64,000 nt of DNA from Octopus vulgaris (lineage: Eukaryota), in the NCBI GenBank assembly GCA_951406725.2, contig OX597821.1:30752001-30816000 (forward strand). Direction: 5' to 3'. The notes beneath the pieces were generated by a model. The model made no database searches. It was given only the letters and a program-made list of their open reading frames with translations, and was not told the DNA's origin. Position numbers and translations under genes: made by a program. Below are positions 14,093 through 54,947 of this stretch, one piece after another; position 1 is the first letter of the stretch, and every line of letters starts with the position of its first letter.

Positions 14093-14150
<58 letters not shown>

Positions 14151-14263
14151 GAGTGAGAGAGCAGTGCATGCCATCAAAGTGACACCGGGGTAAAATATAA
14201 GAAACCCAGTATACCCATCATGACTACCCGTCATGATGGGTATACTGGGTTTCTTATATTTTA
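14151..14263 (-). mobile_element. 3' end of the (TAA)n-inserted element (same family as 23299-23853) ending in a fold-back hairpin
   Basis: gagtgag.gagcag.gcatgccatcaaagt.acac.ggggtaaaatata matches 23299 onward; 34-bp perfect inverted arms 14191-14224/14230-14263. Confidence 0.8.
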
Positions 14264-22483: not shown

Positions 22484-22529
22484 TCACACACACACACAGT
22501 CACACACTCACACGCACAATTTATTTTAT

Positions 22530-22732
22530 TCTTTTATTTGTTTCAGCCGTTTGACTGTGACCAAGCTGGAGCGCCGCCTTTTTAGTCGAACAACTCGACC
22601 CCCAGGATTTATTCTTTGTAAACCGAGTATTTATTGAATCGGGCTCCTTAGCCGAACCACTAAGTTACGGGGACGTAAACATACCAACATCGGTTGTAAA
22701 GCAAAGGTTGGGGGACAAACGTAAACACACAA

Positions 22733-22800
<68 letters not shown>

Positions 22801-22952
22801 GGGCTTCTATCAGCTTTCGCCTTCCCAATCCACTCACAAGGCTTTGGTCGGGCCGAAGCTATAGTAGGAGAAACTTGCCAAAGTTGTCATGCAGTGGGAT
22901 TGAACCCGGAACCATATGGTTGGTAAGCAAACTACATACCACAAACCACTCC
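22530..22952 (-). mobile_element. CORE-type tRNA-SINE
   Basis: Reverse-complement match to the family, with an expanded central (TA)n. Confidence 0.9.
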
Positions 22953-22994
22953 TTTAAAAATATACATGATATGATAATTACTATTTCATTTTCC

Positions 22995-23209
22995 CATTAT
23001 TTACATTGTTTATACTTGACAGGTATTTCTCCTCATCTTTGTGTTAACAAAACAAACGTTGTGTTAACAAAACACAAGGTTTCGCCTGATATACCTTCCA
23101 GCCTTCATCAGGTGTCTTGGGGAAATTTCGAACCTGGGTTCTCATTCCTATTATTATTATATTATTATTATTGTTGATGTTTTTGTTGTTGTTGTTGTTA
23201 TTGTTGTTG

Positions 23210-23285
<76 letters not shown>

Positions 23286-24139
23286 CATTATTATTATTGA
23301 GTGAGCGAGCAGAGCATGCCATCAAAGTTACACTGGGGTAAAATATACGAAGCCCAGTATACCCATCATGACTACCCGTCTGATAAGGGTACACCAGGCA
23401 CATACATCACAACCATATGTGCGCGACATGGTGATCTCATATCAAGATAAACAGCACATGACCTTGCAGGTGGAGCCCAGTTAGAATTTTCTTCAGATCG
23501 AGTAACCCATCCCGTTCAAAAGGTCCCTGAATAAGGGTTGTTTAAGGACGTTGAACGAAACACCTATGTTTCCAGAGGTGAATTATTCAAACCCCAAAGA
23601 ATCCTTCTCAACACATGGCTATGATGCTCCCCCACTACTTCTGCTCGTGAGCAGAGATGCACATATCGTCAGCCACTAAGGGGCATGCTCAACTGGTTAA
23701 GGTCAAACAACTGACAAGCAAATCTGTGGTATTGAGCAGAATATTTGCTGTAGCCCATCTTTTATACCAAGACAAAACAATGTACATGATAACACTTCCA
23801 ATCAGTTAAGATCAGAAGCCATGAGAGCCACTGCCTGGTACTGCATCAGGGCTATCATTATTATTATTATTATGAATATTATTATTATTATTCAGGTCAC
23901 TGCCTAGAATCTTAGGGTTAGTTACCCGCGCTCTTAACCACTGCGCCATAAGCCCGTGGAATGAGAACCCAGGTTCCAAAATTCCTCAAGACATCTGATG
24001 AAGACTGGTGGGTATACCAACCGAAACGTTGTGTTAACTTCAAACAAGATGAAGACAAATATCCGTCAAATGTAAATAATTTAAATAACGTAAATATTGT
24101 AACTAATGTACATAATTCCTCATCTCTTAAATATAGAAC
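22995..24139. mobile_element. Inverted pair of tRNA-head/hammerhead/PLE-tail SINE (minus arm 22995-23959, plus arm 23959-24139) with a nested insertion
   Basis: Hammerhead motifs at 23071-23116 (-) and 23990-24035 (+); tRNA-like head 23891-23959 (-); flanks atttcattttcc/atatcattttcc duplicated. Confidence 0.8.
23299..23853 (-). mobile_element. Non-autonomous non-LTR-like element inserted in (TAA)n
   Basis: ~555-bp higher-GC segment bounded by (TTA)n on both sides; the same end recurs at 14151, also next to (TTA)n. Confidence 0.65.
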
Positions 24140-24237
24140 AATATCATTTTCCTATGTTACGTACATCTGGTATAAGTAATATCATCTGAGCAGGGGTGGT
24201 AGTAGAAGATACTACAGAAGACGTGTTATATTCGTTC

Positions 24238-31150: not shown

Positions 31151-31479
31151 TCTCTTCAATATGCGGAGGGAAAATACATTTTAGAAATATTTAATTCTAT
31201 TTTCGAAATAAATATCAGTCGGCATTTAAATCTAAGATAACAGGTGATGTCTTTGAGCTGTAGTACTCGATAAGCAGCTCAGAGCAAATTTCTAAATACG
31301 GCATAATCAGTAAAGCGTTCACTTTATCGTGAATTTTGCATTATAACCAAGGACAATCGTGTTGGTAATAAAACGTAGATCTATTTCTAGATACTCGGTT
31401 GTAGACTACGAAGGAAATGAAATCAAACGACTTCGAGCAATAACGAGGCAATGTGTGAAGTTTCGACAAGTAAACTATT

Positions 31480-31696
31480 GTTCTATATTTAAGAGATGAG
31501 GAATTATGTACATTATTTACATTACTTACGTTTGAGGGATAATAGTACTCCCCTTGTTTGTTGTTAATACAACATTTCGGCTGATATATCCTCCAGGCTT
31601 CATCAGGTGTCTTGGGTAAATTTAGAACCTCGGTTCTCATTCATAAGATATTTTTCGTTGTTGTTGTTGTTGTTGTTATTATTATTATTGTTGTTG

Positions 31697-31767
<71 letters not shown>

Positions 31768-31964
31768 GTTGTTGTTGTTGTTATTATTATTTTATTATTA
31801 TTCAGGTTACTACCCGGAATCCAACTCTGAATCCTGGGGTTAGTGGACCGCGCTCATAACCTCTATGACATATACCCGCGTGCTTATGCCCACGGGTATA
31901 TGGCGTAGTGGTTAAGAGCGCGGGCTACTGACCCCAAGATTCCGAGTTGGATTCCAGGCAGTGA

Positions 31965-32056
<92 letters not shown>

Positions 32057-32205
32057 TCGAAAAATATCTTCGGAATGAGAACCCAGGTTCGAAATTTCCC
32101 CTAGACACCTGATGAAGGCTGGAGGGTATATCAGCCGCAATGTTGTGTTAGCAACAAACATGACGAGGACAAATATTCGTCAAATGTAAATAATGTAAAT
32201 AATGT
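31480..32205. mobile_element. Head-to-head inverted pair of tRNA-head/(AAT)n/hammerhead/PLE-tail SINE
   Basis: Minus arm 31480-31883, plus arm 31888-32205; A-box TGGCGTAGTGG 31901-31911, B-box-like GAGTTGGATTCC; hammerheads 31566-31611 (-) and 32104-32149 (+, GAAA>GCAA); TSD aagtaaactattgttc/aagtaaattattgttc. Confidence 0.85.
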
Positions 32206-32749
32206 AAGTAAATTATTGTTCACTATCTCTTTGGGGTTCGTTATTGGTACTTCGTTGAGAGTGTAGCTTTTGTTTTTTTTCCACACTTGTCACCATGAAA
32301 AAACAGCATAGTATTAGTATTAGACGGTTATTGAATAATGTAACTGTGTACCGTACGCATTTATTCTGGATGGAAAACTAAGTTTCATATTAACCAACGT
32401 CTGGAATGAATGATATCCGCAGCACTTATATTGAGATATATTCTTTAGCACGATCGTCTAGATTGGCTTTTATAAAGCGAAGAATTCTGGTATTTTAGTT
32501 CACCTCCGTATGTTATGGGTTATATCAAATCTTTGATTTCAGGATTTGATAAGATAATTGATTGTTAGTTATTGGAGTTAATTCACCTGATTCCATATTA
32601 CTCATAGGATAGATAACACTGAGTGTCGATATTATAAATTATTGATACATCGATTATTCGTGTCATTCATACGAATCATATCGATGAGGTCATACTTATG
32701 GGAAGTAAATAGAATGTGTCTCGCTTCGTAAGAATTCGTTGAAGTAACC

Positions 32750-51509: not shown

Positions 51510-51947
51510 GGATCTTTTCGGTATGAACGGCAGTTTTTAACATAATTTCTAGGTAACTAAAAAATTTTGAACTTCGTATACTGGTAGAATGTGTTTATAA
51601 AACATATTTTTCTCTTGGCTTTATTGAGAAAATTCTATAGTTTGTAAGATATTTGTTGTTTTTTTCTTCAATTTCTGCAATTTCAACCAATCACTGACGT
51701 CCATTGAGGTAAAAAAAACATTCTGTGCCGTATGAATATGTCCCTCGTTTAAGAAACAGATTGGGTTTATTTACATTTGTGAAGAAAAAAGATACCCCTC
51801 GCCCACCCTTAAGCCTAACCCTAACCATAACTAACCCTAACCCTAAAACAAATTGAAATGCAATAGATCGATACTAGGGTCATAATTATGGGTGACAATT
51901 TCATATGACACCGGTCGAAAAAACTGCCGTTCAAACCGAAAAGATCC
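51510..51947 (-). mobile_element. Merlin-like MITE with (CCCTAA)n, copy 5
   Basis: TIRs; perfect 8-bp TSD cgtacata. Confidence 0.9.
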
Positions 51948-52399
51948 CGTACATATATTATACACACGTATGTGTGTGTGTGTATGTGTGTGTGTGTGTG
52001 TGTGTGCGTGCGTGTGTATGTATGCTCTCTCAAATCATACACATAAAAAGCAACGATCCATCGTTTTGTACAGTTTCCACAATCCTTTTACACATCTGTA
52101 AAAGAGATCGAAAATAAAATAAAAGAATTCCCAAGATCATTTCATACTTTACACACGCACATTGGAAGCCATATTTGTCAACGGACATAGCGCACCAACT
52201 AACTCAATGCAAAGCAGGTCAGGAGTCACTTCCACAACCCGTTAGCCAGCAACAATAAACATCCTCATTGACAATCGCTGTCTGACCTAATTCCACAGTA
52301 GCAAACCAGGACTAACAATCGCAACAATAACAGCCTGCTACTGTTACTACATTGGAAGCACCTTGTTTGTCACCACTATCTGACCTGATTTCACCTAGC

Positions 52400-54142: not shown

Positions 54143-54512
54143 ACTGTGAAAGTGCTACTAATACTTATATTCAGCAAGCTTAATCTAAGTAATGAAGGTC
54201 TTTATTTCTATATATTATATTCTATGTACTATCACATTCGACTAATCATTTCAATATTAGTACTATCCCATGTATTCATAACCAGATAAAGTTCTGTGCT
54301 TAGATTACTTGTTTATTTATTTTAAATATGTAAGACTGATAAATATAATCTTACTTTCAAGATAGGTTAATCGTATAATCGTGCAAAAATATGTTCTGGA
54401 AGTCAAAATATTTATATTATCATACTCAGTTGATTTTGGTCCTTGACTATGTATGTATTTGTTCAAGTATATATGTATAACTATGTGGGTGCATGCATTT
54501 AATATAAATATA

Positions 54513-54947
54513 GGATCTTTTCGGTTTGAACGGCAGTTTTTTCTAGCGGTGTCATATAAAATTGTCACCCATAATTATGACCCTAGTATCAATCTATTGC
54601 ATTTCAATCTGTTTTAGGGTTAGGGTTAGTTATGGTTAAGGTTAGGGTTAGGGTTGGGCGAGGGGTATCTTTTTTCTTCACAAATGTAAATAAACCCAAT
54701 CTGTTTCTTAAACGAGGGACATATTCATACGGCACAGAATGTTTTTTACCTCAATGGACGTCAGTGATTGGTTGAAATTGCAGAAATTGAAGAAAAAACA
54801 ACAAATATCTTACAAACTATAGAATTTTCTCAATAAAGCCAAGAGAAAAAGATGTTTTATAAACACATTCTACCAGTATACGAAGTTTAAATTTTTTTAG
54901 TTACCTAGAAATTATGTTAAAAACTGCCGTTCAAACCGAAAAGTTCC
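54513..54947 (+). mobile_element. Merlin-like MITE copy 6, flanked by a 182-bp direct duplication
   Basis: TIRs; 54331-54512 repeated at 54948-55129. Confidence 0.9.

What the first reader, a model, noticed from the sequence alone, without database searches (positions are those of the whole stretch)
22981..24152. Second independent inverted insertion of the same hammerhead SINE with the same geometry
The minus arm (head to the AATGTAAAT repeat) and a headless plus arm ending at ...aaatatagaac are enclosed by atttcattttcc/atatcattttcc. Again only one arm carries the last ~30 nt. Here it is the plus arm, whereas at 31.5 kb it is the minus arm. Two loci 8 kb apart with the same asymmetric breakpoint point to a reproducible integration mechanism rather than chance juxtaposition. 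The plus-arm core (23990-24035) is intact: CTGATGA...GAAACGTT.
Basis: partly seen in the sequence, partly recalled or inferred. Interest (0 to 1): 0.75.

Follow-up and report, generated by a model that had tools for sequence, protein, structure and literature searches.

The report
Penelope retrotransposon end with tRNA promoter
This back-to-back pair is the end repeat of a very common protein-coding jumping gene (a Penelope-like element), inserted in the lopsided shape already published for that group; the less ordinary part is that the repeat begins with a tRNA-like segment that likely serves as its promoter.

Summary
In detail: two head-to-head arms at 22995-23959 (-) and 23958-24139 (+), a 12-of-14 target duplication, and a ~31-nt extension on one arm only. 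The repeat is not a free-standing SINE. It is the pseudo-LTR of a Penelope/Poseidon-type element: the hammerhead body and tail are the first ~55 codons of an 835-codon RT + GIY-YIG frame, and the tRNA-Arg-like head lies ~30 nt behind its stop. The geometry is the family norm (about 30,000 loci). Of 41 two-arm loci not selected for the tail, 38 pair one long with one short end and none has two long ends; target duplications far exceed shuffled controls. This layout is published for Penelope elements. Corrections: the minus arm holds a nested 556-bp repeat and has lost its B box; the plus-arm hammerhead keeps its core letters but stem II is broken; no empty site was found. The unusual trait is the tRNA-type promoter in the pLTR: 53 of 87 head-bearing pieces start at it, which suggests RNA polymerase III transcription (untested). 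The scan reached the same reading earlier on other DNA of this genome.

The parts
22981..22994 (.). Left copy of the target-site duplication (core 22983-22994)
22995..23150 (-). Minus arm body: start of the Penelope frame, decayed minimal hammerhead (about 23072-23117; stem II mismatch, stem III palindrome broken), a ~21-nt local duplication, short 3' end inside the 9-nt repeat
23151..23297 (-). (AAT/AAC)n linker of the pLTR, 3' part, expanded
23298..23853 (-). Nested, unrelated 556-bp repeat that sits in (AAT)n runs (11 of 12 full-length hits flanked by them on both sides; one hit is this locus counted twice); later insertion (inferred)
23854..23892 (-). (AAT)n linker, 5' part
23893..23959 (-). 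tRNA-Arg-like head of the minus arm: A box kept, B box deleted; arm starts 4 nt upstream of the head, at the family's pile-up of 5' ends
23958..23959 (.). Inner junction, 2-nt overlap (GG) of the two arms
23958..24104 (+). Plus arm body, 5'-truncated just before the ATG (23961) of the Penelope frame; four 9-nt repeats at 24069-24104
23989..24035 (+). Minimal type I hammerhead motif: CTGATGA 23995-24001, GAAA 24023-24026, palindromic AACGTT, predicted cut after 24030; stem II broken in this copy
   Evidence: motif definition from PMC4209133
24105..24139 (+). Penelope 'tail': extension found on the long arm only, ending at ...TATAGAAC; continues into the reading frame in full-length copies
24139..24152 (.). 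Right copy of the target-site duplication (core 24141-24152)
31468..32217 (.). Companion insertion of the same family: long minus arm (3' end 31480), short plus arm (3' end about 32206-32211), head-to-head junction near 31887, duplication 31468-31479 / 32206-32217

Best explanation
The locus is one old insertion of two end repeats (pseudo-LTRs) of a Penelope/Poseidon-type retrotransposon, likely made when the element's enzyme nicked both target strands about 12 bases apart and copied element RNA from each nick, starting at the long site on one strand and the short site on the other, with the RNA likely transcribed from the tRNA-like promoter at the front of the repeat. Shown here: the unit's place in an RT + GIY-YIG element, two discrete 3' ends, the one-long-one-short rule, target duplications, short overlaps at many inner junctions, and the pile-up of 5' ends at the tRNA head. 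Inferred: both arms are cDNAs primed from opposite nicks on two RNA templates (or one used twice), joined at the centre by short overlaps; the promoter is read by RNA polymerase III. A second repeat later landed in the (AAT)n linker and both hammerheads decayed.
For: Head lies ~30 nt after the stop of a frame ending in a GIY-YIG-type domain (GIY-YIG recognised from recalled motifs, Pfam gave no hit for it); RT domain matches Pfam RVT_1, E 1.8e-8; body and tail run on into the frame in full copies; majority frame of 835 codons from the ATG in the body. End pairs: 38 long+short, 3 short+short, 0 long+long of 41 callable pairs in sets not selected for the tail, binomial P 5e-9, while single arms are long or short about equally. 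Duplication score median 9.5 in 56 pairs against 4.5 in 1370 shuffled pairings; 34 of 56 reach 9 against 1.1%. Either the long or the short arm can be the longer one and both can reach into the frame. 43 of 62 listed inner junctions overlap (BLAST overlap, inflated at palindromes). In vitro, an anole Penelope protein cuts and extends both strands and starts at two sites that bound the tail (PMC11167929). Promoter: canonical A and B boxes 45 nt apart; best match tRNA-Arg among 35 host tRNA sequences, score 63 against a shuffle maximum of 44.5; 53 of 87 head-bearing pieces start within -20..+9 of the head and 11 pass it; 4 of 5 direct tandem joins onto a head start at -4 to -11; no T4 run in the 2.66-kb majority unit, against 2-14 per frame in 13 copies of another Penelope-type family of this genome.
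Against: No empty site was found: the one orthologous contig seen (organism C, 17 differences in 105 nt) already joins the tail to this flank. 3 short+short pairs break the rule and one long+short pair (L103) is doubtful. The T4 absence is weak: P 0.004-0.03 against codon-level shuffles but 0.10-0.27 against Markov models, and 26 related elements without a tRNA head show only 0.64 of the codon-shuffle expectation, 3 of them with no run, which leaves P near 0.1. Rfam and ARAGORN at default thresholds do not call the head a tRNA or the motif a hammerhead. A weak hairpin at the head's 5' edge could also stop or turn the polymerase. The Drosophila Penelope uses a LINE-like internal promoter (PMC2377424, abstract). 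No RNA start sites were measured.
Confidence: 0.8

Rival explanations
1. Fold-back self-priming: a single cDNA reaches the hairpin at the head's 5' edge (or another palindrome), folds back and copies itself, and the second end is resolved at the other tail boundary. This is the self-priming idea proposed for rotifer Penelope elements.
For: Palindromic head-to-head junctions are common (L018, L029, L034, L037, L106); the parent sequence has an imperfect inverted repeat centred just before the head; PMC3846280 (passages) argues for self-priming from such palindromes; the two arms of a locus share variants somewhat more often than arms of different loci (0.55 against 0.24 per pair, 42 pairs).
Against: Many junctions join unrelated positions hundreds of bases apart with 1-6 nt overlap, including this locus (head -4 to body 18) and L139, L223, L051; the tail can sit on either arm, and a fold-back copy cannot add a tail that the first strand lacked.
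Confidence: 0.15
2. The tRNA-like head is a passenger: a tRNA-Arg SINE once landed in the 3' UTR of this Penelope lineage, the element is transcribed by Pol II, and 5' ends pile up at the head because of RNA structure.
For: T4 absence is only weakly significant; 11 pieces pass the head into the upstream frame; known Penelope promoters are Pol II type (PMC2377424 abstract; PMC3846280 passage); a TTAG|G just before the ATG could be a splice acceptor (sequence, untested).
Against: Ends pile at the 5' edge of the head, not at its 3' edge where a folded tRNA would stop a polymerase; both boxes are canonical in the family majority; direct tandem joins start at -4 to -11; none of 9 head-bearing 5' pLTRs that run into the frame extends upstream of the head (small number).
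Confidence: 0.35
3. A separate tRNA SINE family with its own integration mechanism, or two chance insertions back to back.
For: Most copies hold only head, linker and body, and look like a SINE.
Against: The same sequence is the pLTR of full-length RT + endonuclease copies at 90-95% identity; one duplication encloses both arms and no long+long pair occurs.
Confidence: 0.05

Closest known systems
Penelope/Poseidon PLEs: Adineta vaga Pen2a (PMC3846280, passages) and the general PLE layout in Craig et al. 2021 (PMC8557442, passages)
   Same: Single frame of about 835-840 codons with RT then GIY-YIG; pLTR includes the first codons of the frame; adjacent inverted 5'-truncated pLTR; ~31-bp tail on one end only; 8-10-bp duplication; palindromes at inverted junctions.
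   Different: No tRNA-derived segment is described in their pLTRs in the passages read; here most copies are pLTR-only pairs that start at the tRNA head, about 30,000 loci.
Poseidon_Ac of the green anole (Frangieh et al. 2024, PMC11167929, parts 1-2 of 4)
   Same: Hammerhead overlaps the start of the frame; two reverse-transcription start sites bound the tail; both strands are cut and extended; hammerhead cleavage is not needed, and here 5' ends do not pile at the predicted cut.
   Different: That study is biochemical and does not count long/short pairing in two-arm insertions; no tRNA promoter mentioned in the parts read.
Minimal type I hammerheads of animal PLEs (Cervera and De la Pena 2014, PMC4209133, parts 1-2 of 4)
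   Same: Extra base between positions 9 and 10.1, G10.1-C11.1 pair, palindromic 15.2-16.2, short helix I, most copies being truncated PLEs, opposite-strand pairs 100-700 bp apart already noted.
   Different: Both copies at this locus have broken stems; cleavage not tested.
tRNA-derived SINEs (octopus OR1/OR2 and Schistosoma SMalpha are recalled; Ohshima and Okada 1994 not held) and tRNA-bearing non-autonomous LTR elements Helenus and Ajax (PMC10886601, listing and two passages)
   Same: tRNA-like head with A and B boxes followed by a 3' part taken from an autonomous retroelement.
   Different: Here the head is part of the autonomous element itself, and the partner is a PLE, not a LINE or LTR element. 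OR2 is listed as a CORE SINE (PMC4758252 passage); identity with OR1 could not be checked.
L1 twin priming (recalled; listing only)
   Same: Both target strands prime, giving an inverted arm inside one duplication with microhomology at the join.
   Different: In L1 the arms are mostly different parts of one RNA; here both arms repeat the same 3' region and differ by a fixed tail.

Membership tests
Penelope-like elements (Penelope/Poseidon type) | Single frame with RT followed by a C-terminal GIY-YIG endonuclease | tested here: met
   835-codon majority frame, RVT_1 hit, PF26215/PF00078 on 54-68% identical homologues; GIY-YIG read from recalled motifs, no Pfam hit for it
Penelope-like elements (Penelope/Poseidon type) | Pseudo-LTR made of the 3' end plus the first codons of the frame | tested here: met
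Penelope-like elements (Penelope/Poseidon type) | Inverted 5'-truncated copy and 30-40-bp tail on one end | tested here: met
   38 of 41 callable pairs long+short, none long+long
Penelope-like elements (Penelope/Poseidon type) | Minimal hammerhead in the pLTR | tested here: met
   Family motif fits the published descriptor; decayed at this locus; Rfam does not detect it
Penelope-like elements (Penelope/Poseidon type) | Placement in the Penelope/Poseidon clade on an RT tree | not tested
   No named reference set at hand; clade assigned from domain order and recalled motifs
tRNA-derived SINEs | tRNA-derived head with A and B boxes | tested here: met
   Boxes in the family majority; tRNA-Arg best match, far above shuffles; B box deleted in this copy
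tRNA-derived SINEs | Non-autonomous family distinct from its partner and mobilised by a LINE | tested here: not met
   The whole unit is the pLTR of frame-bearing copies; no LINE 3' end, no poly(A)
tRNA-derived SINEs | Transcription by RNA polymerase III | tested here: inconclusive
   5' ends pile at the head; T4 absence weak; no RNA start data
Non-LTR retrozymes | Head-to-tail tandem arrays of non-coding units with canonical hammerheads | tested here: not met
   Copies are single or inverted; short tandems are rare (L405/L407); definition from 10.64898/2026.07.22.740005

The most novel reading that the evidence does not exclude
An autonomous, protein-coding Penelope retrotransposon is transcribed by RNA polymerase III from a captured tRNA-Arg promoter in its pLTR, keeps its 2.7-kb sense strand free of T4 terminators, and turns every inserted end repeat into a ready-made SINE; its insertions follow a strict rule of one long and one short priming site per target cut, which points to an asymmetric two-RNA integration complex.
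Probability: 0.4. Interest if true: 0.7.

Novelty: new variant of a known kind. Interest (0 to 1): 0.42.

Why it matters
The geometry itself is known, so the finding as posed is ordinary. Two things add value. First, tens of thousands of copies make the open question of how Penelope elements form inverted ends and a one-sided tail countable: the one-long-one-short rule, with either arm longer, constrains models and can be tested in the existing in vitro system. Second, if the tRNA head is the working promoter, it would be a protein-coding retroelement read by Pol III and a direct route from an autonomous PLE to SINE-like copies; repeats annotated as SINEs in such genomes may partly be PLE ends.

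Tried and rejected
Rfam at gathering and E-value thresholds and ARAGORN at default found neither tRNA nor hammerhead. Empty site: laying four runs on the whole locus was swamped by other copies and showed no join across it among the rows shown; a narrow lay found one filled orthologue in organism C and no cover of the right flank in three other runs, which proves nothing; the flanks match nothing else among the DNA fetched. Hammerhead cleavage as the source of 5' ends: rejected, no pile-up at the predicted cut. Twin priming on the 5' and 3' pLTR of one unit-length RNA: disfavoured, both arms can reach into the frame's 3' end (L119, L122, L177, L183). T4 depletion as strong proof of Pol III: downgraded after calibration. 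A cluster of 5' ends near the ATG was inspected and gave no common upstream exon. No tRNA boxes were found behind the 26 related elements from metagenome contigs that were long enough to test, of 80 fetched. Phage collection: no match. Literature: ten searches showed no paper on a tRNA promoter in a PLE pLTR; Repbase, Dfam and SINEBase entries, Ohshima and Okada 1994 and Albertin 2015 were not available, and no supplements were read, so the family may be catalogued there.

Full report
1. Observation. The window lies at G000:C8:30752001-30816000 in a 2.8-Gb genome, probably a cephalopod (my inference, not checked). The 31.5-kb locus is the mirror case. Three additions: a 556-bp unrelated repeat sits in the minus arm's (AAT)n linker (23298-23853); the minus-arm head has lost its B box; the plus-arm hammerhead has two of five stem II pairs broken and folds like shuffled sequence, and the minus-arm one has lost the stem III palindrome. 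The arms are 90% and 94% identical to the family majority and 84% to each other.

2. What the repeat is. DNA upstream of the head in L102 and L092 is the end of a reading frame. In 30 loci fetched with that stretch it is followed, about 30 nt after the stop, by head, linker, body and tail in most copies. Upstream lies an RT domain (Pfam RVT_1, E 1.8e-8; homologues at 54-68% identity carry PF00078 and PF26215). In full copies the body and tail run straight into the frame, and the majority frame starts at the ATG in the body and has 835 codons. The C-terminal GIY-YIG domain is read from recalled motifs; Pfam gave no hit there. The 'SINE' is therefore the pseudo-LTR of a Penelope/Poseidon-type element, and the 9-nt repeat keeps the frame. 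Ten loci in 91 spaced 10-kb stretches give roughly 30,000 loci (Poisson range about 15,000-57,000); a 46-nt motif has 848 exact matches.

3. Geometry across copies. An inverted partner piece is present in 20 of 30 loci taken by the hammerhead motif, 16 of 29 by the body, 16 of 29 by the endonuclease (L111 dropped as a duplicate of L102), 20 of 29 by a tail-bearing query and 3 of 10 in the spaced stretches. 3' ends fall into a long class at the end of the tail and a short class in the 9-nt repeat; contigs of four other organisms show loose ends at the same two places. In the four sets not selected for the tail, 41 pairs had both ends callable: 38 long+short, 3 short+short, 0 long+long (P 5e-9 against random pairing); five more pairs had an uncallable end. 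Single arms are long or short about equally. Duplication scores: median 9.5 in 56 pairs (L051 left out; L111 and one mispaired locus, L042, still in) against 4.5 in 1370 shuffled pairings; 34 of 56 reach 9 against 1.1%; this locus scores 10.5. The inner junction varies freely, often with a few shared bases, and either arm can be the longer one. No empty site was seen; one orthologous contig from organism C is already filled, so the insertion is old.

4. Mechanism. The simplest reading is that the endonuclease cuts both strands about 9-14 nt apart, each 3' end primes reverse transcription of element RNA, one at the long site and one at the short, and the two cDNAs join at the centre. This matches the anole protein, which cuts and extends both strands and starts at two sites that bound the tail (PMC11167929, parts 1-2 of 4). 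Fold-back priming, proposed for rotifer elements (PMC3846280, passages), explains the palindromic junctions but not joins between distant positions such as the one here. These steps are inferred from DNA, not shown.

5. The tRNA head. The majority head has canonical A and B boxes and best matches host tRNA-Arg among 35 distinct tRNA sequences sampled, scoring 63 against a shuffle mean of 20 and maximum of 44.5; default Rfam and ARAGORN runs miss it. Of 87 head-bearing pieces, 53 start within -20..+9 of the head, 22 in the next 30 nt, one further in, and 11 pass upstream. Four of five direct tandem joins onto a head start at -4 to -11, and none of nine head-bearing 5' pLTRs that run into the frame extends upstream of the head. 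The 2.66-kb majority unit has no T4 run, while 13 copies of another family in this genome have 2-14 per frame. Against this: the T4 result is P 0.004-0.03 on codon-level nulls but 0.10-0.27 on Markov nulls and near 0.1 after calibration on 26 related elements (of 80 fetched) that lack such a head; a weak hairpin lies at the same edge; known Penelope promoters are Pol II type (PMC2377424, abstract). I put Pol III transcription of the short copies at about 0.65 and of the whole coding element at about 0.4.

6. Comparison and novelty. Inverted truncated pLTR, one-sided 31-bp tail and 8-10-bp duplication are described in PMC3846280 and PMC8557442 (passages); the minimal hammerhead in PMC4209133 (parts 1-2 of 4). 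Retrozymes differ (10.64898/2026.07.22.740005, parts 1-2 of 5; PMC7229834, passages). Ten literature searches showed no report of a tRNA promoter inside a PLE pLTR, but Repbase, Dfam, SINEBase entries, the 1994 octopus SINE paper and supplements were not seen. PMC13282606, PMC10886601, PMC3531059 and PMC4758252 were seen as passages only. Two earlier AI notes on other DNA of this genome reach the same reading; I read them after my own tests, and they are not independent support.

7. Verdict. A real, single, old insertion with the published Penelope signature; a new variant through its tRNA-headed pLTR. Interest 0.42.

Noticed in passing
window 23298-23853 and 14147-14263; L013, L028, L070, L100, L108, L150, L200, L247, L280, L387: A 556-bp non-coding repeat with fixed ends that sits in (AAT)n runs (11 of 12 full-length hits); 12 3' ends in 910 kb of spaced samples. 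Partner element not identified.
   Followed up: partly
L094, L101 (upstream of the body): The (AAT)n linker of the pLTR also hosts 3' ends of a LINE whose frame looks like an R4/Dong-type endonuclease end (recalled motif); the linker is a landing pad for other elements.
   Followed up: no
window 22520-22953 and eight more places: Another abundant SINE-like repeat, usually split by a (TA)n run at the same point; its 3'-facing half starts with a tRNA-like stretch best matching tRNA-Ala among the tRNAs sampled.
   Followed up: no
window 51713-51960 and 54500-54747: 248-nt inverted repeats, 95% alike, 2.5 kb apart; possible DNA transposon.
   Followed up: no
L208-L220 (G000): A second, young Penelope-type family with intact frames up to 1008 codons, a Cys-rich linker before the endonuclease, normal T4 content and no similarity to this family at DNA level.
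   Followed up: partly
L393, L403, L415, L419, L405/L407: Partial tandems in which a unit starting at the head's 5' edge or in the body follows a unit cut 50-250 nt into the frame: likely template jumps.
   Followed up: partly
window 23951-23963 equivalent in the family majority: TTAG|G directly before the ATG resembles a splice acceptor; the Drosophila Penelope intron ends near its hammerhead (PMC4209133). Untested.
   Followed up: partly
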